DNA from: a phage
DNA: 40,032 nt
Strand: one strand, 5' to 3'
Sequence record: PZ490076.1
Part shown: positions 1 to 40,032 of the stretch, in pieces
Position numbering within the stretch: position 1 is the first letter of the stretch
Layout of the letters: each line of letters begins with the position of its first letter
The notes under the pieces: generated by a model
What the model saw: only the letters and a program-made list of their open reading frames with translations
The model's database searches: none
Told to the model about the DNA's origin: nothing
Program-made: the position numbers and the translations under genes

Positions 1-127
1 GCGCTACTCATAGTGATTTCCGTTTAATACAGTCGTATATCCCATACCCTATTAGCCAGATGACCGGAGATAAGCATACCCAATGTCCAACACTCATAGT
101 TAACCTCTATCAATTTAAGTGGTAATC
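1..127. repeat. Window-end duplication: bases 1-127 are identical to 39906-40032 (assembly/circularisation overlap, not the phage terminal repeat)
   Basis: Direct comparison of the first and last 127 nt; gives a unit length of 39,905 bp. The junction falls inside the early gene region, not at T7-like genome termini. Confidence 0.9.
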
Positions 128-270
128 ACTCAGGCCACCATGTAGATGACCTGTAGTTTAACACTCAGTACCCACCTGTCAGCGTTATTGTCAGGCTATG
201 GTGATTAGCCACGTAGCAAGCCCCGCGCTTCATCATCTCGTAGCACCCATCGTAGAACGCCTGTTCACTG

Positions 271-461: not shown

Positions 462-965
462 CTATTGCAGCTTGGACACAAGGAAGAAACAGTCAACCAG
501 TATCAGCTTGCCATTCACAGCCCGTACATTGCGTGGGCTTATCTCAAACCGAATGTCTGACCCAAAGTTAGAGCAGGCGTCCAGCGCCATCAGCACATCC
601 ATCAGACCTTCCCTCACAGTCTCAGTCTCAGACCTGTCGTGTGCAACTTGGAATATCTCGTACCACTTGTGATACAGGTCAGCAGGCCGAGAGACTACCG
701 GAGACCGTGAGAAGCACTCGCGCAGCACCTGATAGAGTTGCCACTGGTCGTCGGCTAAATGCGCCTTGAGACCTCGCGTTGGTGGCATGTAGTCCATCTC
801 ATACGTGCCTACCTCAATCATCTTGACTTCAGGGAACAGTGGAGACTCAGGAAACCATCCCCACGCCATACACTCCTTTATCGGGTCAGAAGAGATCAGA
901 AGTACACGCTTCCCGCAATCCTTCAGGTAGCACTTAGTGAACGCGCCTTTGCCTATCAGTTTCAT
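462..965 (-). CDS. Early protein, protein-kinase-like (resembles the N-terminal kinase part of T7 gp0.7), 167 aa; first gene after the host-type early promoters
   Basis: Gly-rich loop-like IGKGAF near the N-terminus and a catalytic/activation-loop-like segment DIRFEISPRNVRAVNGKLILVDCF, comparable to T7 gp0.7 (GNGHFS ... [21 protein letters not shown]); AAAGGA RBS. Confidence 0.5.
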   Translation of the reverse strand: MKLIGKGAFTKCYLKDCGKRVLLISSDPIKECMAWGWFPESPLFPEVKMIEVGTYEMDYMPPTRGLKAHLADDQWQLYQVLRECFSRSPVVSRPADLYHKWYEIFQVAHDRSETETVREGLMDVLMALDACSNFGSDIRFEISPRNVRAVNGKLILVDCFFLVSKLQ

Positions 966-1137
966 CTTGTTTATCCTTTAGTTAGTGACTATCAGTCAGG
1001 CCGCTATAAGTTAACGACCTGTAGTTAATCACTGTCGGTGCACATTAAGAGTTTATCCAGATTGTTAAAGAGCATTCCCTTCAGTCAGAGGACTTCAGGT
1101 AGACCATTTCAGTGTTGGTCATCACCGTTGTTTCGAT

Positions 1138-4219: not shown

Positions 4220-4556
4220 ATCGACCGAGCCAGCGAGGTTGTATAGCCTTCCACTTCCCGGTCTGTTTACAATAAGACACGCCTTTCGGCAGGTCCCTGT
4301 TCCTGTTGTTTTCAGCCTTGGTCACAGCCCGAAGGTTCTCAATCCTGTTGTCTGTCCGGTTGCGGTTGATGTGGTCAATCACAAGGTCTGATTCAAGGGC
4401 GAACTCAGGGTTGTGCAGCTTGTAGATTAGACGGTGTACGAGATACTTACGGTAGTTGACCGTAGTCCTAAGATAACCGTGGTTGTCCATTGAGCCGACT
4501 TCACGTCCCTTCCTGAACAACTTACCGTCTGAATACGCAAAGTCTGTCAACATCAT
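4170..4556 (-). CDS. Free-standing HNH homing endonuclease, 128 aa, between Rz and terminase
   Basis: HNH motif in translation ([19 protein letters not shown]...[26 protein letters not shown]); start overlaps the Rz stop (ATGA); no counterpart at this position in T7. Confidence 0.85.
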
Positions 4557-4999
4557 TGCTCCTTCTCTTGCTGTAAGGCTCTCACAGTGTCTTGAAGGGC
4601 CTTAATCCACTTGTCTCCTTTCACTCCGATGGCGATAAGACGTTTAGCATCTCGTTCGTCAAGTTCGGCGTAACCATCAATGAAGCATCGACCGTCACTT
4701 TGCGTGGTTCCACTCGTAGGTTTGACTCGGACGAGCAGCCGCTTATTGTCAGACTTAAGGTCAGTAATAATCCTATCAGTGCTGCCTTCCAGCTCGGACA
4801 TTTCGTCCTGAAACCGTTTGGACACTTTGTTGACTTCAGCTTGGACAGCAAGCCTTGTATCTTCCGATGCCTTAAGATTCGAGGTGTATTCTGCATTGAC
4901 CTTAGCCTCCCACTTGTTGTTAGCGGTGTGGTAGCCACCAGCAAACATCACTGCTGCAAGTAGCCACGGAGCCGCTCTCTTAAATTTTTGAAATACCAT
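4553..4999 (-). CDS. Rz-like i-spanin (T7 gp18.5 homolog), 148 aa
   Basis: N-terminal transmembrane segment (WLLAAVMFAGGY) and strong similarity to T7 gp18.5 (EGSTDRIITDLKSDNKRLLVRVK..DERDAKRLIA..GDKWIKALQDT). Confidence 0.85.
   Translation of the reverse strand: MVFQKFKRAAPWLLAAVMFAGGYHTANNKWEAKVNAEYTSNLKASEDTRLAVQAEVNKVSKRFQDEMSELEGSTDRIITDLKSDNKRLLVRVKPTSGTTQSDGRCFIDGYAELDERDAKRLIAIGVKGDKWIKALQDTVRALQQEKEQ
4621..4896 (-). CDS. Rz1-like o-spanin lipoprotein embedded in the +1 frame of Rz (T7 gp18.7 homolog), about 91 aa from the internal Met
   Basis: Lipobox LTISGC and C-terminus similar to T7 gp18.7 (WKAALIGLLLTLSLTISGCSSES...SLMVTPNLTNEMLNV). Start codon uncertain. Confidence 0.7.
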   Translation of the reverse strand: MQNTPRILRHRKIQGLLSKLKSTKCPNGFRTKCPSWKAALIGLLLTLSLTISGCSSESNLRVEPRKVTVDASLMVTPNLTNEMLNVLSPSE

Positions 5000-5381
5000 A
5001 TGTCTCCTTTAGCATTCTGCTATGAGTTGACTTAGCCCATTCCACGACTTCCTTCAGATTCTTAGTAGGAGCATGAGTTTCTTTCTTACCTCCCATCCTA
5101 ATGTCACCATAGTACATAGTTACACCTTGACGTTTAGCAAACCTAGAGTATACGCCTTTAGGTAGTTCCCTAGAGGATACAGTGTTAGCCTTGTTTGCGC
5201 CTTTAGGTATGCACCTAAGGTTTGACAGTTCGTTATTCATAGGATTCCTGTCAATGTGGTCTATGACGTAGCCATCTGGGATAGGACCGTAGGCTTCCTC
5301 CCATAGTAATCTATGAACCCCATGAACCTTACCATTGCGAGTAACCTTCCAGTACCCACCACTTATGTAAGCGTCTTCCAT
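4980..5381 (-). CDS. Free-standing HNH homing endonuclease, 133 aa, between small terminase and Rz
   Basis: HNH motif (GKVHGVHRLLWEEAYGPIPDGYVIDHIDRNPMNNELSNLRCIPKGANKAN); strong RBS AAGGAGGT 5 nt upstream of ATG. Confidence 0.85.
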   Translation of the reverse strand: MEDAYISGGYWKVTRNGKVHGVHRLLWEEAYGPIPDGYVIDHIDRNPMNNELSNLRCIPKGANKANTVSSRELPKGVYSRFAKRQGVTMYYGDIRMGGKKETHAPTKNLKEVVEWAKSTHSRMLKETYGISKI

Positions 5382-5396
5382 ATAACCTCCTTAGTG

Positions 5397-5438
5397 TTAA
5401 CCATAAAGGCCACTACCTATAGTAATGACCTTGAGTCT
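5397..5438 (-). promoter_or_regulatory. Candidate RNase III processing site (copy A of a conserved 42-bp element), upstream of the HNH gene / downstream of gp18
   Basis: Minus strand AGACTCAAGGTCAT-N-GTGGCCTTTATGGTTAA; same element occurs at 29280-29318 and 36245-36286; resembles T7 RNase III sites (..GCCCTTTATGAT..) and sits where T7 has R18.5. Confidence 0.4.
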
Positions 5439-5443
5439 AACAC

Positions 5444-5707
5444 TTATTGAACACCATACCCTGTGTCATTATCCTCAGTCGCTGAAAGTACCTTATCGTA
5501 CTCTGCGTTCAGGGCCTCCATATCAGCCAGCGTCTTCTCGTCCACAGACACCTTACTTAACACAAAGTTGTGACGAGCAAGCAGCTTCTCAATGGCGTTG
5601 TAGAGCTGAGGTGAACGCTTAGTGTCATCCCGCAAGTCTTGCAGCATAAGTCGAGCACGCTCAGTATCAAGCATCAAGAGGAACTTCTCTAAGTCCATCT
5701 GCGTCAT
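5444..5707 (-). CDS. Terminase small subunit / DNA maturation protein A (T7 gp18 homolog), 87 aa
   Basis: Similarity to T7 gp18 (FLLMLDTERARLMLQDL...RSPQLYNAIEKLLARH). Confidence 0.85.
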   Translation of the reverse strand: MTQMDLEKFLLMLDTERARLMLQDLRDDTKRSPQLYNAIEKLLARHNFVLSKVSVDEKTLADMEALNAEYDKVLSATEDNDTGYGVQ

Positions 5708-16521: not shown

Positions 16522-16540
16522 AAAGTCTCCTTATAACCTT

Positions 16541-16590
16541 AAGGGCCTATAGTCCCTATAGTGATAGTTAAGGTAAATCTATAGGCCCTT
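16541..16590 (-). promoter_or_regulatory. Perfect 12-bp inverted repeat (AAGGGCCTATAG / CTATAGGCCCTT) enclosing the phi13-like promoter; candidate RNA hairpin / RNase III site (T7 R13 position)
   Basis: Plus strand 16541-16552 aagggcctatag and 16579-16590 ctataggccctt are exact reverse complements with a 26-nt loop. Confidence 0.4.
16551..16573 (-). promoter_or_regulatory. Phage RNAP promoter (phi13-like)
   Basis: Minus strand CCTTAACTATCACTATAGGGACTATAGG. Confidence 0.65.
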
Positions 16591-16597
16591 CAATAAG

Positions 16598-18955
16598 TTA
16601 GACTGAACGAGCTTTCTTAGCGTATGATGCCTCCCAGCCACACCCAACGATGGACACTGGGGTAGGATAGTCGGACTCTAAGGTTAGACTCGTGGTTAAT
16701 GCGTTACCATTCATAGCGAAGCGATACTGCCCGTCACCAATGTTTGTAGTACCGATGGTTTGCTGACCAATGGTGTACCCGTTGAAGGTATTCACGAACT
16801 CCCGCTCACCGTTTCTGACAATGAGTCTCAGAGCGCCAGTGTCTTTGTAGTTGACCCAAGCCCGACGAAGCTGTAGACGACCAGTGTCTTCAGACTGAGT
16901 GCCACTATCATCTTCAATCTTAATCAGGAACCGTGAGAACTTGTAGGACATCAGATAGGGCCGTCCGATGAACACTGTACGTCCTGACCAATCGCCGTTG
17001 AGGGTAATCACAGTAGAGATACTGGTCAAGTCCCCAAGGTCCACATAAGCACCCTGACTGTCAATCAGATAGTACCGACCGGGAGACGGAGCGTTGCCAC
17101 CATAAGCAGCACCAATGTCAACCGTAGTCTTATAGGTGTCAGCATTATATGAGCCAATTGGAATTACCATAGACACCTTGGAGTCAATGTGTAGTCTATA
17201 TGGCTCTGACGGGAAGTCAGTTGCCTCCTTGATGAACTTAAGGTGCTCAATGTCTACCCCTCCTTGATGCTGCCGAACGATGAACATGGTAGAGCCAATA
17301 GAAGCAGACGCCAGAATCTTATCAGCTTTAGGGAACTCCCAGTGCGACCAAGAGGCTTGAAGCTGTACGCCGTCCTTAAACAAGAACTTGTAGATGTAGA
17401 TACGGTTGTATGCACCTGTAGAGTTGACGCAGATGTAGTTCTCAGTCCCTGTACCTTGAATATCAAACACCCCGTTAGGGATGTAGGACAATACGTGACC
17501 GGTTGTATCATCAGCATCCTTCACATCAGACTCATCAGCTACAGCGAAGTATCGCTTAATGCTGGTGAATGACCCACGAGGAGCTGAGAAGAAGACTGAG
17601 CGTCCTACAGCGAACGGTCTGGCATTGTCGCCTAAGGCAAACTCTGAGCCTACATCAAGCTGGATAGACTTCGAGGTAAGGACCCCAGAGCTTGTCATCA
17701 CGAACTGAACCTCATCCGACCAAAGTAGTAGCTGCTCGCTAAACGGAACGGCATACTTAAGGATTGAGATTCGAGGGTGACTCACAGCTACATCAATAGG
17801 GTCAGCATCACTCAGTGTCGCCACACTCTTAGGGAAGAACGAAAAGTAGCTGGCTGAACGGCTCATGATTACGTTCTCACCCGACAAGAACCCAAGTCTG
17901 TTCCTGTAGAAGAACACATCATTAATCGCAGCATCCACGAAGCTAGGCATAGGGTTTGTGTCATCGTTACCAGAACCACGCTTGGACCAATCCAGAGTCT
18001 TGAACTCAAAGGAGCCGTCAGACTGTCTTACCAGAGCATGTGGCATTGTGGTGTTATCGAACCCAGTGACAACTCCCGGCTCCACTGTCTCCTTCCACGT
18101 CTTAGTGTTGGAGTCATACATCACGTAGTATTCATCGGCGCTACTGTTTGTTTCACCTTGAATCTTAATGATATACCCATTAGGAGCGGCAAGAGGTAGT
18201 TTAGAGATTGTCTGCACAGTGTCTAGGACTGGGCTTATTAGCTGGTTAGCGTAGCCATCCTCCGTCTCCACTGAGTTAATATCGGTCCCTGAAGGAGCTG
18301 TGATTAGCAGGAATCCAGACCCAAGGCCAAACGTGAAGGTAGGGTAGGCAGTAACAAGAAGGTCTCTCAGAGCTGCACCAATGGCTTGAGCGTCCACCTT
18401 AGGCGGGTCATTCTCGGCATCATTACCTGCTGGTAGCTTATGCGAGACCTTAACGCCACCGTTGATTCCCACCTTAAGGGTTCGACCATACTGTCCACCA
18501 CGCAGGTTAATTAAAGCTCGTGCTTTGCGGTTATAACCAGAGTGCGACTTCTCGCTTCCACCTTTGACGACAACCTTACGGTTAACGACGAACGTATAGT
18601 CTGCCACGGTAACGACACGGATGTCATCTCGTGGGTTGGAGGACTTAACGTAATCTACCGCACCTGACACTGAGTATTGATTACCACTCAAGTCAACTAC
18701 CTGAATGTTGGACCCATTGAACACGATGTAATACTGCTCATGCTCATCACGGTTAATCAGGTGGAACTTAGGGTTGCTCCCAACGTCGATGTTAAGACGT
18801 CGCTTGAAGACTGTAGGTGGACGCTTCTGGAGGCCATCACTCTCTGATGACCAGCAGTTAACCTGTGACTCGCCTTGGTCTGAGAACCTCAGTATGTCAG
18901 GCTGTTGGCTAATGCCACCCTTAAGGTTCTTGATTGATTGAGTAATTAGTGGCAT
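16598..18955 (-). CDS. Tail tubular protein B (T7 gp12 homolog), 785 aa
   Basis: N-terminus MPLITQSIKNLKGGISQQPDILRF matches T7 gp12 (MALISQSIKNLKGGISQQPDILRY). Confidence 0.95.
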   Translation of the reverse strand: MPLITQSIKNLKGGISQQPDILRFSDQGESQVNCWSSESDGLQKRPPTVFKRRLNIDVGSNPKFHLINRDEHEQYYIVFNGSNIQVVDLSGNQYSVSGAVDYVKSSNPRDDIRVVTVADYTFVVNRKVVVKGGSEKSHSGYNRKARALINLRGGQYGRTLKVGINGGVKVSHKLPAGNDAENDPPKVDAQAIGAALRDLLVTAYPTFTFGLGSGFLLITAPSGTDINSVETEDGYANQLISPVLDTVQTISKLPLAAPNGYIIKIQGETNSSADEYYVMYDSNTKTWKETVEPGVVTGFDNTTMPHALVRQSDGSFEFKTLDWSKRGSGNDDTNPMPSFVDAAINDVFFYRNRLGFLSGENVIMSRSASYFSFFPKSVATLSDADPIDVAVSHPRISILKYAVPFSEQLLLWSDEVQFVMTSSGVLTSKSIQLDVGSEFALGDNARPFAVGRSVFFSAPRGSFTSIKRYFAVADESDVKDADDTTGHVLSYIPNGVFDIQGTGTENYICVNSTGAYNRIYIYKFLFKDGVQLQASWSHWEFPKADKILASASIGSTMFIVRQHQGGVDIEHLKFIKEATDFPSEPYRLHIDSKVSMVIPIGSYNADTYKTTVDIGAAYGGNAPSPGRYYLIDSQGAYVDLGDLTSISTVITLNGDWSGRTVFIGRPYLMSYKFSRFLIKIEDDSGTQSEDTGRLQLRRAWVNYKDTGALRLIVRNGEREFVNTFNGYTIGQQTIGTTNIGDGQYRFAMNGNALTTSLTLESDYPTPVSIVGCGWEASYAKKARSV

Positions 18956-19637: not shown

Positions 19638-19677
19638 CAAAAAACCCCTCAAGCACCCGAAGGCACCCAAGGGGTTT
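19638..19677 (-). terminator. Tphi-like intrinsic terminator immediately after the capsid 10B stop
   Basis: Minus strand AACCCCTTGGGTGCCTTCGGGTGCTTGAGGGGTTTTTTG: GC-rich hairpin plus T6; closely resembles T7 Tphi (..CCCCTTGGGGCC...GGGTCTTGAGGGGTTTTTTG). Confidence 0.8.
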
Positions 19678-19680
19678 CAA

Positions 19681-26642: not shown

Positions 26643-27243
26643 CTTTCTGTATTCTCCTATTACTAGGAGTGTCGGACTATATCATCAGCCTTTGAGTTGA
26701 CTGTCTGGCGCTTCGGGTAACGAGGGAGTCTCACCCTCGGCCCTACTCCTTTCGGATAGTCTCTACGCCTTCCACTCTCTAATCCACTTACACGCGGCAG
26801 AGAACGTAACACCAAACTTCTCACCTAAGTGTGTTCCTGTACATCCAGTCTCCAACCAGTATTCCTTCGCGGACTCTTTACGGTCAGCGTAGCGTTCTCT
26901 GTTTGTCTTGACTGTATGCTCAGACCCTTCTAGTAACTGGAGATGCTCTGGATTACAGCATGCCCTGTTCCTACACTTGTGGTCTACTTCATACCCTTCT
27001 GGTATATCTCCGTGCTGTTCCTTCCAGACTGTCCTGTGGTACATCTCTAGGACACCGTTAGTCCTCTTTCGGAAATAACCATCAGCATTAAGTTTGTGTG
27101 ACGTAGGGATGATACAACCACTCTCTGTGGTCGCAAGGATTAACTTCTTGCCTCTCATATATCCTCCCTATGGCTTGGCTCGGTATTGCCCTAGAAGGGT
27201 TTCACCGAGTTCACCAGATTTAATGTGCACAATGAGATAGTTT
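26643..27243 (-). mobile_element. Group I intron (about 601 nt) interrupting the DNA polymerase gene, carrying an HNH endonuclease ORF
   Basis: Exon 1 ends ...AYMAWVH (U at the splice site), exon 2 resumes DEIQV (intron ends in G); possible P1 pairing between exon GUGCAU and intron GUGCAC; group I R-like (AGAGACUA) and S-like (GAUAUAGUCC) elements in the 3' part. Confidence 0.75.
26763..27158 (-). CDS. Intron-encoded HNH homing endonuclease, 131 aa
   Basis: HNH motif (EVDHKCRNRACCNPEHLQLL); GGGAGGA RBS 5 nt upstream; wholly inside the predicted intron. Confidence 0.8.
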   Translation of the reverse strand: MRGKKLILATTESGCIIPTSHKLNADGYFRKRTNGVLEMYHRTVWKEQHGDIPEGYEVDHKCRNRACCNPEHLQLLEGSEHTVKTNRERYADRKESAKEYWLETGCTGTHLGEKFGVTFSAACKWIREWKA

Positions 27244-29259
27244 ATGCACCCATGCCATGTATGCAAAGTCTCCTTCCCAGCCGTGGACATACCCGGCCTC
27301 TTCGAGCATACGTTCAGTCTCGACAATCCAGTGCTTACAGACTACCGCACCATCGCCTTGAAGTAAGGCGTTCAGTGCTGAGTGTGGAGACCGGATGTGG
27401 ATACGGCGACCGTCAAGTCCACGCAACCAACGGCGTTTCCACTTGACGATATTCTCTCCGTCAACCCACTTAGAGTCTGAGATTAACGTACTACTCACAG
27501 CTTCCCTGAGGTCTTTGATGGCTGGTGTACCCTCAATGAATTTCTTCATGAGAGCTGAACCTTCCTTCTTCCCGCCGCCTACTATCAGTCCAATCTTAGC
27601 GGCCCCTGCACCATACAGGAACGCATAGATGAACGTCTTAGCGTTGTTACGGAAAGCATCATGGTCGTGGCTCGACTTATCGCGTGGGACGTTAGGCGCT
27701 AACCCAGCGTTTACTGCGTTGGCCCAGTGGATATCACCTTCGACCACAGTCTTCGCATAGGCACCACCATCAAACGGAGCCGCTCGGTTCCCCAGACAAC
27801 GAAGCTCAAGACCTGAAGCATCCACACCCACTTGAATCCAAGGGTCTGGCTTACCATCCGTCTTGTTCCAAGCTGCACCGAAAGCACCACGGCAAATCTC
27901 ACCATACGGAGCACCGTTAGCAGGGACCTGAGCCATGTTTGGTGAACTGTGAGTCGCACGTCCGGTTACTGCCCCGCATGGGTTGATTGAACCGTGCATA
28001 CGTCCGTCTGGACCTACAAGTTTCAACCATGCGTTCTTACCTTCAGCAGCCTGACCTATGCGCTTCTGGACTACCAGATACTCACGGACCAGCTCTACGC
28101 AAGCCTGAGCCTCTGCGTCCGGTAACTTAACGTGTTCTAACGTCTCGTCATCGACTACAGGTTTCCCTGTGTCAGTGAAGTCCACAGGCTCCCAGCCACG
28201 CTCCATCAGGACTTTCGCTAAGTGGTCTCCGCTTCCCGGATTAAACTCAACGTAAGTGATTGGCGTGAACGGTGCTCCTTCCATCGTGTCTCGTGAGTCG
28301 AACTCGCAAGGCTCCAGACCTAAGCGTTGAGCTTTGTTCTTCGGCTTCTTGAATACTGACCCGACCTTAGGATACACGACTCGCGGATACTTCGGGAGGT
28401 CCTTTCCTGTCCGTGGGTGCCTGAAGAACTCCTTGCCACCCTTCGGTGCATACCAGCTACCGAAAGTCGAACGCAGCTTGTCCAACAGCTCTGCACGTTT
28501 GACGGTTAGTTCACGATATAAGCCTTCGACCATCTCGGTGTTCATCGGATAGCCGTTACGCTCCATCTTCGCACAGGTCCACGCAGCATCATGTTCCAGA
28601 CGCAACGCATAAATCTGGTCGAGAGCGAACTGTTCAGACTGGAAGTAATACTTGTCAGTCAGGAACTTCTTGAACAACGCCAGTGTGACCACAACGTCTT
28701 GAACGTTATAGTCCAGCATCTCCTGAGACGGGAACAGCCATTCGTCCCCAGCCTTATATTCGATACCTTCAGCCTTGCACTTGGCAACGTAATCGTGTTT
28801 GTACTCACCTTTCATCTCACCGAGACGATAGCCCCAAGCCTCAAGAGACTGGCGTCCCATCATCTTAGGTGGCAGACGACCAGCTTTCACTGCGCCCATG
28901 TCTGAGAACTTAATGTTTGGATACATCAAGCGTCCCAGCACCAAGGTATCAATCATCTTGTGTTTCGGGAAGTTAAAGCGTTTCCCAAAGTACAGACGCT
29001 TCAGCTTGTCAATAGCCGGGACGTCATAGTTGATACCGTTGTGGAATACCAGCATACCATCAGGTGATGCGGCAATCTCTTCCACCTTCTGTACATACTC
29101 TTTGAAGCCACCGACGATACCGACCATCGGAGCTACCCCATACTTAAGGGTCTCATTCGACTCGGCGTTAATCAGGACCCCACAGTGAAACTGGGAGACT
29201 GTATCAAGGAGACCGTTGGTCTCTATGTCAGAACCCCAGATACTCTTAAGGTCAAACAT
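27244..29259 (-). CDS. DNA polymerase, exon 1 (T7 gp5 homolog), about 672 aa
   Basis: Strong similarity to T7 gp5 (MEGAPFTPI..VEFNPGS.DH, NGAVTGRATH, DASGLELRCL, AKTFIYAFLYGAG, GDFAYMAWVH); start placed at MFDLKSIW (GGAGGA RBS), not the upstream track start at 29295. Confidence 0.9.
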
Positions 29260-29279
29260 GGTTAATCCTCCGTTTAGTC

Positions 29280-29318
29280 TAATCATAAAGGCCACTCGAT
29301 GTGAATGACCTTGAGTCT
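29280..29318 (-). promoter_or_regulatory. Candidate RNase III processing site (copy B of the conserved element), 21 nt upstream of the DNA polymerase start
   Basis: Minus strand TAGACTCAAGGTCATTCACATCGAGTGGCCTTTATGATTAGAC. Confidence 0.4.
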
Positions 29319-29322
29319 AGAC

Positions 29323-31202
<1,880 letters not shown>

Positions 31203-31507: not shown

Positions 31508-31966
31508 TTAACCACGGTCGGAAGTGACCAGTTCATTGGTAGACAGCCAGCGTTGCAAGTCGAAACTTGGACACGCCTTAGGTGCTACGTCATGGTGTGC
31601 TTTGATTTCTGCCTGAGGATACAGGACCTTCAGGTCAGCCAGCTTGTTGCGCAGGGAGTTCATCTGGGCTGGAGTGAAGTTAGCTTCAAACTGACCCTTA
31701 GCGTTGATTCCGCCTACAAGGCAGACGCCTACAGACCGTGAGTTCCAGTCCTTAACGTGTGACCCTACGACATTGACCGGGCGACCCTCTTCCACAGTGC
31801 CATCACGTTTGATGATAAAGTGGTAGCCTACGTCCAGCCAGCCTTGCTGCTTGTGCCACATACGGATGGTCTCTACCCCGATGTCCATATCTGGCTTGGT
31901 AGCCGAACAGTGAACGAAGATAGCGTCAGTCCGGGACCGTGGGTTGAACTGTACCTTACTTACCAT
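31508..31966 (-). CDS. N-acetylmuramoyl-L-alanine amidase / RNAP-inhibiting lysozyme (T7 gp3.5 homolog), 152 aa
   Basis: Near-identical blocks to T7 gp3.5 (DAIFVHCSATKP, HKQQGWLDVGYHFIIKRDGTVE, GVCLVGGI, FTPAQM, APKACPSFDL, NELVTSDRG). Confidence 0.95.
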   Translation of the reverse strand: MVSKVQFNPRSRTDAIFVHCSATKPDMDIGVETIRMWHKQQGWLDVGYHFIIKRDGTVEEGRPVNVVGSHVKDWNSRSVGVCLVGGINAKGQFEANFTPAQMNSLRNKLADLKVLYPQAEIKAHHDVAPKACPSFDLQRWLSTNELVTSDRG

Positions 31967-32429
31967 TGTACACCACCAATTCTACGACCACTAGATTCAG
32001 GTGCTGGGTGAAGCGCTGTGCGTCCGTGGTGTGCATCTGGAGACGCTTATGGTTGAAGACGTGTGAGTTGCTAATCTTCACGTAAACTTCTTCAGGCTTT
32101 CCGTGGACGATGAACGTCTGGCCTACACCAATCTTGTCGATGGTCAGGACTTCACGTTTAACGGTGACAGGAGGGACACTTGAGGCTGGCAGGACTTGAG
32201 GTTTATCCTCTACAATTTCCTCAAGATATGCATTTAAAACCCATGCTCCCCACATTCCGTCAGGCTGCGTGTTATGACCCGCGCTACCGTGCTTGTAGTA
32301 GCCACGCTCGGAGGATTCTACCAGGGTACTTCCAACCGTGGAAAACGGGTCTTTCGCACATTTCGTAACGATAGCACCTTTAGGCCACCCGTGGCGGTCA
32401 ACCTTAAGTCTATATTTCTGAGTCATCAC
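31956..32429 (-). CDS. Hypothetical protein, 157 aa, between the endonuclease I and amidase genes (no T7 counterpart)
   Basis: AAAGGAG RBS; start overlaps the gp3 stop; no recognisable motif. Confidence 0.5.
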   Translation of the reverse strand: MMTQKYRLKVDRHGWPKGAIVTKCAKDPFSTVGSTLVESSERGYYKHGSAGHNTQPDGMWGAWVLNAYLEEIVEDKPQVLPASSVPPVTVKREVLTIDKIGVGQTFIVHGKPEEVYVKISNSHVFNHKRLQMHTTDAQRFTQHLNLVVVELVVYNGK

Positions 32430-34664: not shown

Positions 34665-35768
34665 TTAGCTCTTAATGGTCGGATTGTCTTCAGTTCCACG
34701 CCAGCACTTGAAGCTAGGGTGACGAAGTGAGCCATCTGGGAACCGCTCCATGAAGAGGACTTCACACTGCCAGCCTTCGTATGGGTTGGTCTTCTCGGTC
34801 CCATCCTGAATAACCACAGGGCCACCAGCCAAGGTATAGCCACTAGATTCAGCGACTTTAGCTGTGAATTCGTCCTTCTGTTCTTCAGTCAGGCCACAGG
34901 TGTTAACCACCATGCCGTCCTCAAGTAGCACCTCGAAGCCGATGACCTTACCTTCGTTCGCCTTACCCTGAGTCCCCCACACGAGGCCACACACTGTCCC
35001 GTCTATGGTCTCCTCAGGCTTCATTTTCCACATGCCAGACTTCTTGCCACGCTTGTATTTACCAAGCGGGTCCTTGACTACCAGACCCTCGTGTCCTTCC
35101 AGACGCTTCTCTTCGTACAGGGAGCTGAGCGACTCAAGGTCATAGACCGTGTGTGACTCAGACAGAACCCAGTCGATTTCCGGGAAGTATTTCTGGAGGA
35201 GAGGGACGATAGCTTCGGCCTTCAGGCGTGTGACGCTATGAATAGGACCTTCGGCTTTTGGGTCGTTGATGACGTTAAGGTCGATGACCCCGTAGACGAC
35301 CACTCGTAGGGACTCAGGGCTAATCTGGAAGGGAACCTTGTTAGACTTCTTGGTCTCCATATCTGCCTTAGGGTTCATGTTCCACTTGTAGTTCTTGCGG
35401 TCAGACCACATGGTGCGGATAAGACCGGAAGACGTGTTGAAGTCCACGCCTTTGACCATCACCTCGCCATCAATCATTAGGCCAGAGACCTCATGTCCTG
35501 CTTGCTTCAGGAACCAGCGCCAGTCTCCACAGTTTGTTAATTCGGTAGGACTACCATGTTCTGACTTCAGATGCTGAAGCGCTGGGAGAGGTTTAGACTC
35601 ACGGCTCAACCATTGAGTCTCACCAGTAGGGAAGACCGGGAGATTCAGGCGCACACCATCGTACTTCACTTCAGCTTCCAGAGACCCGGCTGCTTCCAGT
35701 GCTTTCTTAACGCCAGACTCAGAGTAATCTACAGCGCGGTGCGGGTTAGTTTTGATAGTCGTTGTCAT
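34665..35768 (-). CDS. ATP-dependent DNA ligase (T7 gp1.3 homolog), about 367 aa
   Basis: KxDG adenylation motif (EVKYDGVR), collinear similarity to T7 ligase (IKTNP..AV, MIDGE.MVKGVDFNT.SGL.RT, EGHEGL.VKDP...YKRGKKSG.WKMKPE, DGSLRHPSF...RGTEDNP); start placed at the second ATG overlapping the gp1.2 stop. Confidence 0.9.
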   Translation of the reverse strand: MTTTIKTNPHRAVDYSESGVKKALEAAGSLEAEVKYDGVRLNLPVFPTGETQWLSRESKPLPALQHLKSEHGSPTELTNCGDWRWFLKQAGHEVSGLMIDGEVMVKGVDFNTSSGLIRTMWSDRKNYKWNMNPKADMETKKSNKVPFQISPESLRVVVYGVIDLNVINDPKAEGPIHSVTRLKAEAIVPLLQKYFPEIDWVLSESHTVYDLESLSSLYEEKRLEGHEGLVVKDPLGKYKRGKKSGMWKMKPEETIDGTVCGLVWGTQGKANEGKVIGFEVLLEDGMVVNTCGLTEEQKDEFTAKVAESSGYTLAGGPVVIQDGTEKTNPYEGWQCEVLFMERFPDGSLRHPSFKCWRGTEDNPTIKS

Positions 35769-36031
35769 TATGATTTGCTCCATGTGTCGAGTTGGTCAGC
35801 GAGACCATTGAGGAATTCTGTTGCAGTGTTGTACAGTACGTCTTCATCGTAGTGTGCGAAGGACTCAAGAGCGAATATGTTACCCGCCCGGTCCTCTACC
35901 CTGAGTCTCATACACTCTTGGCGTGACGTAAGGTCTTGAAACTCCTGAGATATGACAGCGAAGTCTAACTGATAGAGCCTGTTACACGCTGCTTTGAAAG
36001 CGTTTAGGTTGCCACTATAAAGTCGGCCCAT
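35768..36031 (-). CDS. T7 gp1.2 homolog (dGTPase inhibitor family), 87 aa
   Basis: N-terminus MGRLYSGNLNAFKAACNRLYQLDFAVI matches T7 gp1.2 (MGRLYSGNLAAFKAATNKLFQLDLAVI). Confidence 0.8.
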   Translation of the reverse strand: MGRLYSGNLNAFKAACNRLYQLDFAVISQEFQDLTSRQECMRLRVEDRAGNIFALESFAHYDEDVLYNTATEFLNGLADQLDTWSKS

Positions 36032-36036
36032 AGCGT

Positions 36037-36215
36037 TATGCTCCTACGAAATACTTCTCTTGGTTGACCATAGAGTCTTTTCCTTCAGCGTTACGGAAAG
36101 CACCCTTTACACCACCGCCACGCTTGGTCTTGTTCAGCTTGCGTCCCTTCGGAATATAATCTTCAGTCTGCTGACGTTCACGGATGCGCTCGAAGTTGAT
36201 AGTGTTCTGATACAT
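36037..36215 (-). CDS. T7 gp1.1 homolog, 59 aa
   Basis: Hand translation MYQNTINFERIRERQQTEDYIPKGRKLNKTKRGGG... contains KGRKLNKTKR as in T7 gp1.1; AGGAG RBS 7 nt upstream. Confidence 0.6.
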
Positions 36216-36244
36216 GGTGTAGCTCCTGATTGAATGAGTTAGGG

Positions 36245-36286
36245 TTAATCATGAAGGCCACGACTCTGAGTCATGACCTTGAGTCT
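36245..36286 (-). promoter_or_regulatory. Candidate RNase III processing site (copy C of the conserved element; T7 R1.1 position) between the promoter and gene 1.1
   Basis: Minus strand TAGACTCAAGGTCATGACTCAGAGTCGTGGCCTTCATGATTAA. Confidence 0.4.
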
Positions 36287-36308
36287 AATCCTATAGTGAT
36301 AGTTTAGG
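36286..36308 (-). promoter_or_regulatory. Phage RNAP promoter (phi1.1-like)
   Basis: Minus strand CCCTAAACTATCACTATAGGATTAGAC. Confidence 0.7.
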
Positions 36309-36383
36309 GTTAACCTCTTCTGCGTTGGATTAAAGTGAATACTGCTAGTGCTCCCAGCCACAAGGCCAGTAACTGTAAGTCTG

Positions 36384-36599
36384 TCATTTGGTCTGCTCCA
36401 GCTTGGACACTGCGTCTTTCAGGTATTTCTCGTGGCTAGATTCCACAAGACAGACGAGGGTCTTGAATGGGACGTTAAGCTGCTTTGACATCTCGGTAGG
36501 AATGACCGTGGTCTTCACCAGACCCTTGCCGTTGTGTTCTGTTACGGTCACGATTTGAGTCCCGCCCTTAACGCCAGCCTGCTTGTGTGCAAATTTCAT
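36384..36599 (-). CDS. Hypothetical protein, 71 aa, immediately downstream of the RNAP gene
   Basis: AGGAGAGAG RBS directly after the RNAP stop codon; no recognised homolog. Confidence 0.5.
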   Translation of the reverse strand: MKFAHKQAGVKGGTQIVTVTEHNGKGLVKTTVIPTEMSKQLNVPFKTLVCLVESSHEKYLKDAVSKLEQTK

Positions 36600-36613
36600 A
36601 ACTCTCTCTCCTG

Positions 36614-39295
36614 TTAAGCGAATGCAAAGTCTGAAGACAATATGTCCTCGATATTCAGTTTACCTTTCTTCGGTAGCTCAGGCAACTTGTCGCGCTGGCT
36701 CTCGTGAAGCTGGTATTCGAACTGCTCGTAGAAGTCAAGCAGCACATCGTTGTCGCGGTAGGTCTCGACCATCGTCTCACGGACACCACGGAACAGATAT
36801 TCAGCGTCAGCCGGGATGGTCCCGAAGCTATCGTGAATCACTGCGAATGACATCACGCCATACTTGCGGTGCGTGTGGACTACAGTCTTGCGGAGGTGGC
36901 TACCATCTTGTGAGTGGACGAAGTTCGGGCTAATTCCTGACTCCTGCTTGTGTTTGTCCAGCTCTTTCTTCGTACCTCTGTTGACGGTAGGCTGAAGGTT
37001 GAATGACCCTAAGAACATCAGGTTCAGACGAGTGGTATCCTTCTTGCGGTATTCCTGCCAGACCGGGAAACCATCAGGTGTTACCCAGTGTACCGGAAGG
37101 CAAGGCTTCAGGATTTCTCCAGTCTTCTTGTCCTTCACCTCAGCAGCCAGCAGCTTGGCAGCGCCTTGAAGCCACTTCATCGCGTCAACCGCAGCAACTA
37201 CGGTCACACTCACAGCTTCCCAAATCATCTTAGCCATGAAGCGAGACGCTTGGCTAGGCTCGGTGAACATAGCGCCAGACCCTGAGTCAATCGCTGGCAT
37301 CACGATGTCCTCGTAAACTTGGTCTGCGAAGCCGTACTCTTTCGACCCGTATGCCAGAGTCATGACTGAACGCTTAGTGACCTTACGTGACATCCCGTAT
37401 GTCAGCCACTGACGGGCCAGCTCTCGTGTCCCCAGCTTGATACGTTCGGTAATCTCACCAGTTTTCTTGTCCTCGTGAGTGACCATCTCGTTGTCAGTAC
37501 CGTTAATCAGCAGGACTTTAAGCTCCTCCTCAATGCGGTCAGACACAATGCGGTAGATGTCTTGTACCATACCGGATGGCGTCAGGTTTACTGCATGCCC
37601 ACCGATGTGGTCACGAAGCATCGCACTGAAGTGCTGAATACCAGAGCAGGACCCATCGAACGCTATCGGCAGCGAGCAGGAGTAAGACAGGCCGTGGTGC
37701 ATTACGCCAGCATACTCGAAGCAGAACGCGAGGAAACAGAACGGAGAGTCTAACTTGCCCCACCACTCAATACTATCCATCGGTGCCTTAGCAGCAGCCA
37801 TGATGTTTTCGTGGTTGTCTTCCACCCACTTGATGCGCTCCTCGAAGGTGACTTTATCGACACCCGCGCAGTTTGCACCGTGGACCTTCAGCCATTTGAA
37901 ACCGTCAGCACCAATAGGCTTGCCGACTGCCAGAGTCAGGAGACCCTTCTGCATGTCGTTACCCTGAGGGTTGAACATCGGCACAGCGTAGACGCGCCCT
38001 CGCCAATCCATGTTGTACGGGAACCAGATGGCCTTGAACTGAGAGAACTTGTTAGCTTGGTTAACGATAAAGCTCAGTGACAATCTGCGCGACTGTCTGG
38101 CCTTCTCGCGGCGATAGATACCAGCAGCAGCCTTCTTCCATGCCTTGAGTTCCTCCTCGGTCTCACCAGCATAGTCCTCAGGCTTCAGCGGCTCCATCTG
38201 AGGGATGTCATCAATAGGTGTGTTGTTCAGCTTCTCGACCATGTTCACCACGTCCAATACCTTCTTGTTCACTTTCCAAGGTGTATTCTGGATGATATTC
38301 ACAGCGTCATAGACTTCAGGCATGTATACGTCTTCATAACGTGCTACCGCAGACTTAGACCCTAAGCGAATCAATGGTAACGGTCTGCGACCTTTGGCCC
38401 AGTACCCACCGCCTACGACACCAGTCCACGGCTTAGGTGGAACGACGCAAGGCTGGTAGACTGGAGCGATACCCGCAAGGCTGAATCCTCGTTGTGCCAT
38501 CTTCTTGACCCAGAAGTCTGACAGGTGGACCATCTCTACGTCAGTCGCTGCATTGCCAGCACCGTACCGCTTAAGCTCGACCAGTTGTGTTGACTGGATG
38601 ACAATCTCGAGCATCTTGATGCCAACGTGGACAGCCTCTGTAGGACTCCAAGTCCCCCACGCATCTTCCAGTTGACCTTGCTCCAGCATGGACGCCTCGA
38701 CCGCTTGCATGTAGGCTTTCTTGTAGGACGCCCCGGCCCGCTTATTCAGGTTATCAGCTATCGCCTTCTTGAAGTGCTCTTTCTCTTTGTCACGGATGCG
38801 ACCGAAGCGGATTTCGTCCTCAAGTGTGCGACCTATCGCGGAGGCCATAGGTGTAATTGGTATCCCTTCGGGCTTGACCAGCTTGGAGAGTATGACCTTC
38901 AGTATGATAACCGCAGCGGACTCACAGGAGATGCGCATAGAGCGGTCCTTGACGGCCTTCTCTTCAGTGCTCAACATGGTGAACGCTACGCTAGGACGAG
39001 AGGTTGACAGCTTTCCGTCTGGACCTTCATGCCACTCCCTGACGGCTTGCGCAATCTTAGGGACCAGAGTCTGCATCAAAGGCTTGGCGACCTGATTGTC
39101 TGCCAGTTCCCCGCGCTCAGTCTGTCGCTCAAGGTTTTTGATGAAACGTCGCTCGCCTTCAGTGTATGCCTCATGCTCAAGCTGAAGCTGTTTAACTGCA
39201 AGGTCTTGCCCGTAGTGGTCGGCCAGCAGGTTAAACGGCTCAATGGCGTTCGACACATCAGAGAAGTCGTGTTTGTCAATAGAGATGACGCTCAT
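36614..39295 (-). CDS. Single-subunit DNA-dependent RNA polymerase (T7 gene 1 homolog), 893 aa
   Basis: Collinear with T7 RNAP including C-terminus ...DILSSDFAFA (T7 ...DILESDFAFA), RGRVYAVPMFNPQGNDM, SGIQHFSAMLRD, PNFVHSQDGSHLRKT, LIHDSFGT. Confidence 0.98.
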   Translation of the reverse strand: MSVISIDKHDFSDVSNAIEPFNLLADHYGQDLAVKQLQLEHEAYTEGERRFIKNLERQTERGELADNQVAKPLMQTLVPKIAQAVREWHEGPDGKLSTSRPSVAFTMLSTEEKAVKDRSMRISCESAAVIILKVILSKLVKPEGIPITPMASAIGRTLEDEIRFGRIRDKEKEHFKKAIADNLNKRAGASYKKAYMQAVEASMLEQGQLEDAWGTWSPTEAVHVGIKMLEIVIQSTQLVELKRYGAGNAATDVEMVHLSDFWVKKMAQRGFSLAGIAPVYQPCVVPPKPWTGVVGGGYWAKGRRPLPLIRLGSKSAVARYEDVYMPEVYDAVNIIQNTPWKVNKKVLDVVNMVEKLNNTPIDDIPQMEPLKPEDYAGETEEELKAWKKAAAGIYRREKARQSRRLSLSFIVNQANKFSQFKAIWFPYNMDWRGRVYAVPMFNPQGNDMQKGLLTLAVGKPIGADGFKWLKVHGANCAGVDKVTFEERIKWVEDNHENIMAAAKAPMDSIEWWGKLDSPFCFLAFCFEYAGVMHHGLSYSCSLPIAFDGSCSGIQHFSAMLRDHIGGHAVNLTPSGMVQDIYRIVSDRIEEELKVLLINGTDNEMVTHEDKKTGEITERIKLGTRELARQWLTYGMSRKVTKRSVMTLAYGSKEYGFADQVYEDIVMPAIDSGSGAMFTEPSQASRFMAKMIWEAVSVTVVAAVDAMKWLQGAAKLLAAEVKDKKTGEILKPCLPVHWVTPDGFPVWQEYRKKDTTRLNLMFLGSFNLQPTVNRGTKKELDKHKQESGISPNFVHSQDGSHLRKTVVHTHRKYGVMSFAVIHDSFGTIPADAEYLFRGVRETMVETYRDNDVLLDFYEQFEYQLHESQRDKLPELPKKGKLNIEDILSSDFAFA

Positions 39296-39364
39296 ACTTA
39301 AAGTCCTTGTTATTAGTCTTTCACTTAAAGTCTCTTTGGTCTTTCACTTGGAGTCTTAGACCTT

Positions 39365-39387
39365 GAGTCCTATAGTGATAGTTAAGT
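39365..39387 (-). promoter_or_regulatory. Phage RNAP promoter located directly upstream of the RNAP gene
   Basis: Minus strand GACTTAACTATCACTATAGGACTCAAGG, 70 nt upstream of the RNAP start codon. Confidence 0.6.
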
Positions 39388-39392
39388 CATAA

Positions 39393-39916: not shown

Positions 39917-40032
39917 AGTGATTTCCGTTTAATACAGTCGTATATCCCATACCCTATTAGCCAGATGACCGGAGATAAGCATACCCAATGTCCAACACTC
40001 ATAGTTAACCTCTATCAATTTAAGTGGTAATC

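What the first reader, a model, noticed from the sequence alone, without database searches (positions are those of the whole stretch)
36245..36286. Conserved 42-bp element (three copies) upstream of strongly translated genes: candidate RNase III processing sites
The minus-strand element AGACTCAAGGTCAT-N9/10-GTGGCCTT(T/C)ATG(A/G)TTA occurs at 36245-36286 (before gene 1.1), 29280-29318 (before DNA polymerase) and 5397-5438 (before the HNH/Rz block), each 16-30 nt upstream of a start codon with a strong RBS. The GGCCTTTATGATT-type 3' half resembles T7 RNase III sites as I recall them and two copies sit where T7 has R1.1 and R18.5. A partial copy (GACTCAAGGTC) follows the promoter upstream of the RNAP gene.
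Basis: partly seen in the sequence, partly recalled or inferred. Interest (0 to 1): 0.4.

Follow-up and report, generated by a model that had tools for sequence, protein, structure and literature searches.

The report
T7-type RNase III mRNA processing hairpins
The repeated 40-base element is the K1F-like phage's version of the RNase III cutting sites long known in phages T7 and T3, hairpins where the host enzyme cuts long phage transcripts into separate mRNAs, so it is real but ordinary.

Summary
The minus-strand element AGACTCAAGGTCAT-N9/11-GTGGCCTTYATGRTTA occurs exactly three times (36246-36286, 29280-29318, 5398-5438), against none expected by chance.

The interpretation also holds, as far as computation can show:
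- Each copy folds into a lower stem, an asymmetric internal loop (ACUC opposite YAUGR) and an upper stem, the same shape as the T7 sites.
- A covariance model built only from seven T7 RNase III sites scores the three copies at 45-52 bits.
Nothing else in the window exceeds 16 bits.
- In T3, the model recovers 8 of the 10 annotated "RNase III recognition sites" and gives no false hit.
- Across 108 distinct T7-like phage sequences, 89.7% of the predicted pairs form, against 27-50% in slid controls. All nine lower-stem pairs show compensatory changes.
- The positions match T7/T3 R1.1, R4.7 (directly before gene 5, as in T3) and R18.5.

The "partial copy" before the RNA polymerase gene is not a site. 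Cleavage itself is untested.

Side observations are a possible sixth, promoter-enclosing hairpin before gene 13, and a 441-nt gene cassette gained or lost by crossover inside one site.

This is a new member of a known kind and of low interest.

The parts
36235..36298 (-). R1.1-type RNase III site. Predicted cleavage is CCUUCAU^GAUUA, between 36251 and 36250. That leaves a 35-nt leader before the gene 1.1 start codon at 36215.
   Evidence: The T7-only model scores it 45.2 bits, E = 4e-8. The fold is -20.2 kcal/mol, z = -2.89. The downstream 59-aa ORF matches Pfam PF08200 'Bacteriophage 1.1 protein'. Cleavage position by analogy with T7.
36289..36309 (-). Phage RNA polymerase promoter (CCCTAAACTATCACTATAGGA). 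Its first transcribed bases form the 5' arm of the lower stem of the R1.1-type site, the same arrangement as T7 phi1.1A with R1.1.
   Evidence: It is one of nine promoter-consensus matches, all on the minus strand. T7 phi1.1A starts at 5848 and R1.1 lies at 5843-5903.
29269..29330 (-). R4.7-type RNase III site directly upstream of the DNA polymerase gene. The core is 29280-29318. Predicted cleavage is CCUUUAU^GAUUA, between 29285 and 29284, leaving a 25-nt leader before the ATG at 29259. The 10-bp upper stem AAGGUCAUUC/GAGUGGCCUU is identical to that of T7 R1.1.
   Evidence: Model score 49.9 bits, E = 2.9e-9. Fold -22.0 kcal/mol, z = -3.53. The downstream ORF is a DNA polymerase. T3 places its annotated R4.7 directly before gene 5.
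5387..5450 (-). R18.5-type RNase III site between the small terminase gene (gene 18) and an HNH endonuclease gene followed by the Rz spanin gene. The core is 5398-5438. Predicted cleavage is CCUUUAU^GGUUA, between 5403 and 5402, leaving a 21-nt leader before the ATG at 5381.
   Evidence: Model score 52.4 bits, E = 7e-10; the opposite strand scores only 13.2 bits. Fold -23.4 kcal/mol, z = -3.93. Flanking genes identified. T7 and T3 have R18.5 between genes 18 and 18.5.
978..1039 (-). It is the variant type ACUACAGGUC...GGCCUGACUGAUAG, like T7 R1. It lies upstream of the first early ORF (965..462, 167 aa). Predicted cleavage is between 994 and 993, leaving a 28-nt leader.
   Evidence: Model score 43.9 bits, E = 8e-8. 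Sequence context. Compared with phage K1F it is a mosaic: the flanks match the K1F site at 703-771 and the stem-loop matches the K1F site at 1026-1088.
112..171 (-). Its 9-bp upper stem CAGGUCAUC/GGUGGCCUG is identical to that of T7 R1. Predicted cleavage is CCUGAGU^GAUUA, between 128 and 127, leaving a 30-nt leader before the ATG at 97. Its 3' end is repeated at 40017-40032, because the window's two ends overlap by 127 nt.
   Evidence: Model score 51.9 bits, E = 9e-10. Sequence. T7 R1 sequence. Terminal overlap and comparison with phage BUCT788.
16530..16597 (-). Candidate sixth site, of lower confidence. A 12-bp stem AAGGGCCUAUAG/CUAUAGGCCCUU encloses the promoter before gene 13, with an internal loop and a 5-bp lower stem. 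In position and design it resembles T7/T3 R13 and R6.5, where the promoter sits inside the RNase III hairpin.
   Evidence: Fold -30.1 kcal/mol, z = -3.11. The stem is kept in all but the most distant of 24 related phages, including ones with a different promoter sequence, but shows no compensatory change and only one G-U substitution. The T7-derived model does not detect it. T3 annotates R13 and R6.5 as stem-loops containing their promoters.
39359..39369 (-). It is the 5' half-motif only and is not a processing hairpin.
   Evidence: No 3' half-motif lies nearby. No model hit. Fold of the leader -12.7 kcal/mol, z = -0.22. The region differs from K1F at 1 of 131 positions.

Best explanation
The three copies, plus two variant copies in the early region, are RNase III processing signals on the sense (minus-strand) transcripts of a K1F-like (Kayfunavirus) T7-group phage. 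They are homologous to sites R0.3, R0.5, R1, R1.1, R4.7 and R18.5 of T7 and T3.

Shown here: each element folds into about 20 bp of interrupted double helix. A 7-9 bp lower stem of free sequence is followed by a conserved asymmetric internal loop (ACUC, or ACUA, on the 5' side; five bases such as YAUGR on the 3' side). Above that sits a 9-12 bp upper stem that begins AAGG/CCUU or CAGG/CCUG.

Inferred from T7: host E. coli RNase III binds this helix and cuts once, in the 3' side of the internal loop, after CCUU-NAU. The upstream mRNA then ends in a protective 3' hairpin. The downstream mRNA begins 21-35 nt before its start codon, with the Shine-Dalgarno sequence in a short, mostly unstructured leader. 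Long polycistronic transcripts are thereby cut into discrete mRNAs whose stability and translation are set at the cut.
For: - Sequence: the two-part motif occurs 3 times against 0 expected. The same half-motifs lie in the + strand of the T7 genome at the positions I recall for R0.3, R0.5, R1.1, R4.7 and R6.5, and more loosely R18.5, with the recalled cut falling at GGCCTTTAT^GATT.
- Independent model: a covariance model made from 7 T7 sites only gives five minus-strand hits of 43.9-52.4 bits in the window. The next best hit scores 15.8 bits.
- Specificity of the model: in T3 its 8 hits with E<1 are exactly 8 of the 10 features annotated 'RNase III recognition site' in AJ318471. In T7 it also recovers R6.5, which was left out of the training set. 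In phage K1F it finds sites at the matching positions.
- Structure: the folds have the same shape as T7 R0.5, R1.1, R4.7 and R18.5, with z-scores of -2.9 to -3.9.
- Covariation: in 108 distinct sites from IMG/VR phage contigs, 89.7% of cells pair, against 27-50% when the partners are slid. There are 333 cells changed on both sides, against 51-111 in the slid controls. All 9 lower-stem pairs carry compensatory changes, and 0 of 500 shuffles reach the observed score.
- Strand: invariant U-G pairs, and the weak score of the opposite strand (13.2 against 52.4 bits), point to an RNA-level function in the sense transcript.
- Position: the sites are intergenic, 15-30 nt before start codons. They lie before the gene 1.1 homologue, before the DNA polymerase gene as in T3, and after the small terminase gene.
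- Known reactivity rules (Pertzev and Nicholson 2006, PMC1540722): all five sites have A-U at proximal-box position 2 and no G-C at position 4. All have at least 11 pairs counted from the cut to the loop. Four of five have the canonical UA/UG distal box.
Against: - No cleavage data exist for this phage, so the cut sites are extrapolated from T7.
- I could not retrieve Dunn and Studier 1983. The T7 cleavage coordinates come from memory, cross-checked only by where the motif lies and by the T3 annotation.
- The R1.1-type copy has G-C instead of U-A at one distal-box position and C-C instead of C-U next to the predicted cut. This could lower its reactivity.
- T7 grows on hosts lacking RNase III (stated in PMC6938266), so the sites are not essential and their contribution to fitness here is unknown.
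- The IMG/VR sequences were collected with a pattern that fixes 18 bases. Those columns carry no information, so the covariation evidence rests on the other 13 pairs.
Confidence: 0.9

Rival explanations
1. The hairpins act without being cut. They would be bound but not cleaved by RNase III, or act alone as 3'-end stabilisers or translational operators for the downstream gene.
For: Variants of R1.1 that bind RNase III but resist cleavage are known, and a G-C pair next to the scissile bond can uncouple binding from cleavage (PMC1540722). In the site before the polymerase gene, the predicted fold extends the lower stem by pairing CUUCU with the GGAGG of the Shine-Dalgarno sequence. The R1.1-type copy departs from the canonical distal box.
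Against: None of the five sites has a G-C or C-G pair at the catalytic antideterminant position. The internal loop and the base of the upper stem are the same as in T7 sites that are cleaved. The CUUCU/GGAGG pairing is not kept in relatives, which have CUUAU or other sequences there.
Confidence: 0.05
2. The primary role is at the DNA level. The repeated sequence would serve as a recombination linker at module boundaries, or as part of a replication origin, with the RNA structure incidental.
For: The window differs from phage BUCT788 by a 441-nt cassette whose crossover lies inside a site. The site at 978-1039 is a mosaic of two K1F sites. Homology blocks with other phages often end at the two early sites. 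In T7, R1.1 lies in the region of promoters phi1.1A and phi1.1B, where I recall the primary replication origin to be.
Against: Compensatory changes that keep pairing while the sequence changes, the G-U pairs, and the strong strand bias show selection on RNA structure, not on DNA sequence. Recombination at repeats is an expected by-product of any dispersed 40-60-nt repeat.
Confidence: 0.03
3. They are transcription terminators or pause sites for the host or phage RNA polymerase, or they are promoters.
For: They are stable GC-containing hairpins in intergenic regions. The loop of the R18.5-type copy contains TTACTATAGG, one mismatch from the promoter core.
Against: No run of U follows any stem, and the terminator scan finds nothing at the three reader copies. 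The real terminator after the capsid gene looks quite different, with a 17-bp GC-rich stem followed by UUUUUU. The full 21-nt promoter consensus does not match inside any element. Relatives vary the would-be +1/+2 GG in that loop, to TATATG, TACATG or TAGATG.
Confidence: 0.01

Closest known systems
[quoted passage not shown]
   Same: The half-motifs are the same (ACUCAAGGUC...GGCCUUUAUGAUU). So is the layout of lower stem, 4x5-nt internal loop and upper stem. The genomic slots match: after gene 1 and before gene 1.1, before the replication genes, and after gene 18. In the R1.1 slot a phage promoter abuts the site in the same way. The upper stem of the copy at 29280-29318 is identical to that of T7 R1.1 over 10 bp.
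   Different: The lower stems and loops have unrelated sequences, which is compensatory variation. The window has five canonical sites against eight in T7, with no R1, R1.3 or R6.5 counterpart detected. The R4.7-type site sits directly before gene 5, because gene 4.7 is absent. An HNH endonuclease gene lies between the R18.5-type site and gene 18.5.
Bacteriophage T3 'RNase III recognition site' stem-loops (GenBank AJ318471 annotation)
   Same: They score in the same range with the T7-derived model (33.9-61.7 bits, against 43.9-52.4 here). T3 also places R4.7 immediately upstream of gene 5.
   Different: T3 has ten annotated sites. Neither the K1F nor the BUCT788 record annotates any.
T7 R1 (early site between gene 0.7 and gene 1)
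   Same: The two early-region sites of the window use the R1-type variant ACAGGUC...GGCCUGA. The site at 112-171 has the same 9-bp upper stem as T7 R1.
   Different: They lie before early genes in the 0.3/0.5 positions, not before gene 1. The gene 1 leader of this phage has only the 5' half-motif and no hairpin.
T7/T3 R6.5 and R13 (RNase III hairpins that enclose a phage promoter)
   Same: The candidate hairpin at 16530-16597 encloses the gene 13 promoter in its loop. Its stem starts AAGG/CCUU, and it sits in the R13 slot.
   Different: Its stem sequence is otherwise unrelated. The model does not detect it and it shows no covariation, so membership is not established.

Membership tests
T7-group RNase III processing signals (R sites) | Two-part conserved sequence: ...CUCAAGGUC (or CUACAGGUC) in the 5' arm and GGCCUU-NAUGAUU (or GGCCUGA-) in the 3' arm | tested here: met
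   The motif gives 3 exact matches against 0 expected. The same half-motifs occur at the T7 sites. The T7-only covariance model gives five hits of 43.9-52.4 bits, with the next best at 15.8 bits.
T7-group RNase III processing signals (R sites) | About 20 bp of helix interrupted by an asymmetric internal loop, which restricts cleavage to one strand | tested here: met
   Minimum-energy folds of the three reader copies give a 7-9 bp lower stem, a 4x5-nt loop and a 10-12 bp upper stem, with z-scores of -2.9 to -3.9. This shape matches four T7 sites folded in the same way. The two early-region sites fit the same model structure with a 9-10 bp upper stem.
T7-group RNase III processing signals (R sites) | Both helices are maintained by compensatory substitutions across phages | tested here: met
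   In 108 distinct sequences, 89.7% of cells pair against 27-50% in slid controls. Compensatory changes occur at 9 of 9 lower-stem pairs and at all 4 variable upper-stem pairs. None of 500 shuffles reaches the observed covariation score.
T7-group RNase III processing signals (R sites) | Located in the sense transcript, between genes, at conserved slots of the T7 gene order | tested here: met
   All five hits are on the coding strand. They lie before the gene 1.1 homologue, before the DNA polymerase gene as in T3, after the small terminase gene, and before early ORFs.
T7-group RNase III processing signals (R sites) | Proximal and distal box content compatible with E. coli RNase III: no G-C or C-G at proximal-box positions 2 and 4, a U-G pair in the distal box, and at least 11 bp from the cut to the loop | tested here: met
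   Read from the sequences against the rules in PMC1540722. Position 2 is A-U in all five sites. Position 4 is a non-Watson-Crick pair in all five. The distal U-G is present in all five, with U-A beside it in four. The count from the cut to the loop, including that non-Watson-Crick pair, is 11 or 13 in the three reader copies and, from the model alignment, 11 and 12 in the two early sites if the non-standard closing pair is counted.
T7-group RNase III processing signals (R sites) | Specific cleavage by host RNase III in vitro and in vivo | not testable with these tools
   No RNA-end data are available for this phage or for K1F. No paper in the library mentions RNase III together with Kayfunavirus.
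T7-group RNase III processing signals (R sites): the 'partial copy' at 39359-39369 | Presence of a 3' arm that forms the two-part hairpin | tested here: not met
   No 3' half-motif is nearby, there is no model hit, and the fold has z = -0.22.
Intrinsic (rho-independent) terminators | A GC-rich hairpin followed immediately by a run of U | tested here: not met
   No terminator-like site was found at any of the three reader copies. The stems are followed by YAUGRUUA.
Phage (K1F-type) RNA polymerase promoters | Match to the 21-nt consensus ...CTAAACTATCACTATAGGA | tested here: not met
   The nine consensus matches all lie outside the elements. Only the 10-nt core matches, with one mismatch, in the loop of the site at 5398-5438.
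Any curated Rfam family | A hit at the element in Rfam 15 | tested here: not met
   No Rfam match overlaps any site, even at E<=1. Rfam gave no match for these T7-type sites.

The most novel reading that the evidence does not exclude
Besides directing RNA processing, the dispersed RNase III sites may act as the recombination 'linkers' of T7-group phages. Each early gene would be a portable cassette of site, Shine-Dalgarno sequence and ORF. Crossovers or gene conversion between sites would add, delete or swap cassettes, and would keep the sites within one genome alike.

Three observations point this way:
- The window differs from phage BUCT788 by a 441-nt cassette whose junction lies in the 11 nt shared by two tandem sites.
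- The site at 978-1039 is a mosaic of two K1F sites.
- In a spread sample, 13 of 22 substantial homology blocks with other phages end within about 20 nt of the two early sites, which together cover about 14% of the query.
Probability: 0.25. Interest if true: 0.35.

Novelty: new member of a known kind. Interest (0 to 1): 0.12.

Why it matters
The practical value is in annotation. Neither the K1F reference record nor the BUCT788 record marks these sites. The T7-derived model places five of them to the base, with predicted mRNA 5' ends. This helps anyone engineering K1F-like phages for therapy against K1 E. coli, or reading their transcriptomes.

The work also shows that the T7 processing signal is conserved in structure across many T7-like phage contigs, with textbook covariation. 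A curated RNA family could be built from it, since the Rfam search matched nothing here.

It does not change the understanding of RNase III or of T7-group gene expression.

Tried and rejected
- A fixed 10-nt spacer pattern found nothing, because the true spacers are 9 and 11 nt. A variable gap fixed this.
- The bare 11-mer GACTCAAGGTC is not specific. It gives 15 hits with one mismatch, half of them on the plus strand in coding sequence.
- Rfam gave no family for the elements.
- A sliding 80-nt minimum-energy scan of the whole minus strand was dominated by GC-rich coding sequence. It singled out only the terminator after the capsid gene, so it was useless for finding further sites.
- I looked for R6.5-, R1- and R1.3-type counterparts. 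There is no structure at the gene 6.5 promoter (z = +0.24). The gene 1 leader has none either. There is no intergenic gap before the ligase gene.
[quoted passage not shown] T7 cleavage coordinates therefore rest on memory plus where the motif lies. The T3 GenBank annotation was used as the citable standard instead.
- The T7 records in the collection list no RNase III features.
- The idea that the promoter-like loop at 5398-5438 is a working promoter was rejected.

Full report
**What the window is.** A 3-kb stretch of the window (35000-38000) matches Escherichia phage BUCT788 at 100% identity, and other K1F-like (Kayfunavirus) phages at about 90%. All genes lie on the minus strand in T7 order. 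The window is a circularly permuted contig: its first and last 127 nt are the same, and the early region wraps across its ends. PHROG and Pfam matches confirm the relevant genes:
- the gene 1.1 homologue (36036..36215, Pfam 'Bacteriophage 1.1 protein');
- primase/helicase, and DNA polymerase with its ATG at 29259;
- small terminase (5444..5707), an HNH endonuclease (4980..5381) and the Rz spanin (4553..4999).

**The observation.** The element is present as described. AGACTCAAGGTCAT-N-GTGGCCTTYATGRTTA occurs exactly three times, all on the minus strand, at 36246-36286, 29280-29318 and 5398-5438. None was expected from shuffles (sequences). The gaps to the start codons are 30, 20 and 16 nt, and each start codon has a GGAG-type ribosome-binding site. 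The 11-mer half-motif alone is not diagnostic. With one mismatch it occurs 15 times, and seven of those are on the plus strand within genes.

**Comparison with T7 and T3.**
- In the + strand of the T7 genome, the same 5' and 3' half-motifs occur together at 1436-1473, 5856-5892, 13862-13897 and 18510-18568, and more loosely at 882-895 and 36825 onward.
- These are the places where I recall Dunn and Studier (1983) mapping RNase III cuts R0.5, R1.1, R4.7, R6.5, R0.3 and R18.5. With those coordinates the cut falls at GGCCTTTAT^GATT in every canonical site.
- I could not retrieve that paper, so I used the T3 GenBank record as a citable standard. It annotates ten stem-loops as 'RNase III recognition site', R0.3 to R18.5.

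**An independent membership test.** I aligned seven T7 sites (R0.3, R0.5, R1, R1.1, R1.3, R4.7, R18.5). I gave them the textbook structure and built a covariance model from T7 alone.
- In T3, its eight hits with E<1 coincide one for one with eight of the ten annotated sites. It gives no false positive and misses only the atypical R3.8 and R13.
- In T7, it also recovers R6.5, which was not used for training.
- In the window, searched with filters off, it gives five strong hits, all on the minus strand: 5387-5450 (52.4 bits), 112-171 (51.9), 29269-29330 (49.9), 36235-36298 (45.2) and 978-1039 (43.9). The next best hit scores 15.8 bits.
- The reverse strand of the best site scores 13.2 bits.
- K1F, the type species, has hits at the corresponding places.

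There are two more sites in the early region, of the variant type ACUACAGGUC...GGCCUGA, which is the T7 R1 type. Neither the K1F nor the BUCT788 record annotates any of them.

**Structure.** Each of the three reader copies folds into the same shape as the T7 sites:
- a 7-9 bp lower stem;
- an internal loop, ACUC opposite YAUGR;
- a 10-12 bp upper stem and a 3-5 nt loop.

Energies are -20 to -23 kcal/mol, with z-scores of -2.9, -3.5 and -3.9 against shuffles. T7 R0.5, R1.1, R4.7 and R18.5 give -2.7 to -3.3 by the same method. The copy before the polymerase gene has the very same 10-bp upper stem as T7 R1.1. The site at 112-171 has the same 9-bp upper stem as T7 R1.

**Covariation.**
- An exact-pattern scan of IMG/VR for CTCAAGGTC-N8-26-GGCCTTNATG returned 120 stretches, almost all in phage contigs of about 40 kb.
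- I removed the variable loops to make ungapped 55-nt constructs and kept all 108 distinct sequences, chance matches included.
- For the textbook structure, 89.7% of cells pair, against 27-50% when the 3' partners are slid by one to three columns.
- There are 333 cells changed on both sides, against 51-111 in the slid controls.
- All nine lower-stem pairs and all four variable upper-stem pairs carry compensatory changes, and no shuffle reaches the observed covariation score.
- The roughly ten matches in GC-rich, non-T7-like contigs do not pair in the lower stem, so they serve as an internal negative control.
- The 18 bases fixed by the search pattern carry no information. The evidence rests on the other 13 pairs.

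**Fit to the known rules for E. coli RNase III.** Pertzev and Nicholson (PMC1540722) defined four features on the R1.1 minimal substrate:
- a 4-bp proximal box, where G-C or C-G at position 2 blocks binding and at position 4 blocks catalysis;
- a distal box, optimally UA/UG, with a strict need for the U-G pair;
- a minimum of 11 bp between the cut and the loop;
- an internal loop that limits cleavage to one strand and leaves a protective 3' hairpin.

Read against these rules, all five window sites have A-U at position 2 and a non-Watson-Crick pair at position 4. All five have the distal U-G, with U-A beside it in four; the R1.1-type copy has G-C there instead. The helix from the cut to the loop is 11 or 13 pairs in the three reader copies. 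The model alignment gives 11 and 12 for the two early sites if the non-standard closing pair is counted.

**Mechanism.** The family membership, the fold, the covariation, the strand and the gene context are shown. The cleavage itself is inferred by homology. Host RNase III would cut once in the 3' side of the internal loop, at these positions:
- between 36251 and 36250;
- between 29285 and 29284;
- between 5403 and 5402;
- between 994 and 993;
- between 128 and 127.

The upstream mRNA would then end in the upper-stem hairpin. The downstream mRNA would start 21-35 nt before its start codon. In the R1.1 slot, a phage promoter (36289-36309) abuts the site, so that its first transcribed bases form the 5' arm of the lower stem, as with T7 phi1.1A and R1.1. 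Many IMG/VR relatives show the same coupling of promoter and site.

**What is not supported.** The 'partial copy' at 39359-39369 is only the 5' half-motif. It has no 3' half, no model hit and an unremarkable fold (z = -0.22). It is nearly identical in K1F. The elements are not terminators, since no U run follows them and the scans are empty. They are not promoters either. The promoter-like loop of the R18.5-type copy varies at the would-be start bases in relatives.

**Further observations.**
- Candidate sixth site. A 12-bp stem encloses the gene 13 promoter at 16530-16597 (z = -3.1). It is kept in all but the most distant of 24 relatives, including ones with another promoter type. It sits where T3 annotates R13, a stem-loop containing its promoter. 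The model does not detect it and it shows no compensatory change, so I rate it only a candidate.
- Cassette difference. BUCT788 has two tandem sites flanking a 115-aa ORF. The window has one hybrid site and lacks the 441 nt between them. The junction lies in the 11 nt (GATTACCACTT) that the two sites share.
- Mosaic site. The site at 978-1039 has the flanks of one K1F site and the stem-loop of another. Homology with other phages often stops at the two early sites. This suggests the sites also serve as crossover points for early-gene cassettes, which is an expected by-product of dispersed repeats.

**Verdict.** It belongs to a kind of element known since the 1970s-80s in T7 and T3. Its presence in a K1F-like phage is an unannotated but unsurprising new member.

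Noticed in passing
window 112-171 (-) and both window ends; BUCT788 record (L150) 31820-32320: The window is not identical to BUCT788. It lacks 441 nt carrying a 115-aa ORF with a weak helix-turn-helix match. In BUCT788 this ORF lies between two tandem RNase III-type sites. The window's single site is a hybrid of the two, with the junction in the 11 nt they share (GATTACCACTT). The cassette was therefore gained or lost by crossover inside the site.
   Followed up: partly
window 978-1039 (-); K1F (L003) 703-771 and 1026-1088: This early site is a mosaic. Its flanks match one K1F site and its stem-loop matches another. In a spread sample, 13 of 22 substantial homology blocks with other phages end within about 20 nt of the two early sites. 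This suggests gene conversion or cassette exchange at the sites.
   Followed up: partly
window 16530-16597 (-): A 12-bp perfect stem (AAGGGCCUAUAG/CUAUAGGCCCUU) encloses the phage promoter before gene 13, with z = -3.1. It is kept in all but the most distant of 24 relatives but shows no compensatory changes. It is a possible R13/R6.5-style RNase III site with a promoter in its loop.
   Followed up: partly
window 26653-27253 (-): There is a group I intron-like match (Rfam RF00028, 38.3 bits, below the family threshold, E = 2e-6) at the 3' part of the DNA polymerase gene. It contains a 131-aa ORF (26763..27158). The K1F record annotates gene 5 as two joined pieces with an HNH endonuclease ORF inside. 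The BUCT788 record annotates the polymerase as a single unspliced ORF followed by an HNH gene, so its polymerase annotation is probably truncated.
   Followed up: partly
window 39368-39388 (-): A full-consensus phage promoter sits about 75 nt upstream of the phage RNA polymerase gene itself, which implies self-amplifying transcription of gene 1. In the annotated T7 and T3 records no phage promoter precedes gene 1. The 131-nt region differs from K1F at one position, although the genomes overall are about 90% alike.
   Followed up: partly
window 4980-5381 (-): An HNH endonuclease gene is inserted between the R18.5-type site and the Rz spanin gene. In K1F the site directly precedes gene 18.5. The endonuclease thus takes over the processed leader and ribosome-binding site.
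   Followed up: no
window 36614-39295 (-): The RNA polymerase ORF is 893 aa, as in K1F. The BUCT788 record annotates a shorter product starting at an internal ATG (record 33489), which looks like a mis-called start.
   Followed up: no
window 19640-19680 (-): A strong intrinsic-type terminator lies just after the major capsid gene. It has a 17-bp GC-rich stem followed by UUUUUU and is the counterpart of T7 Tphi.
   Followed up: no
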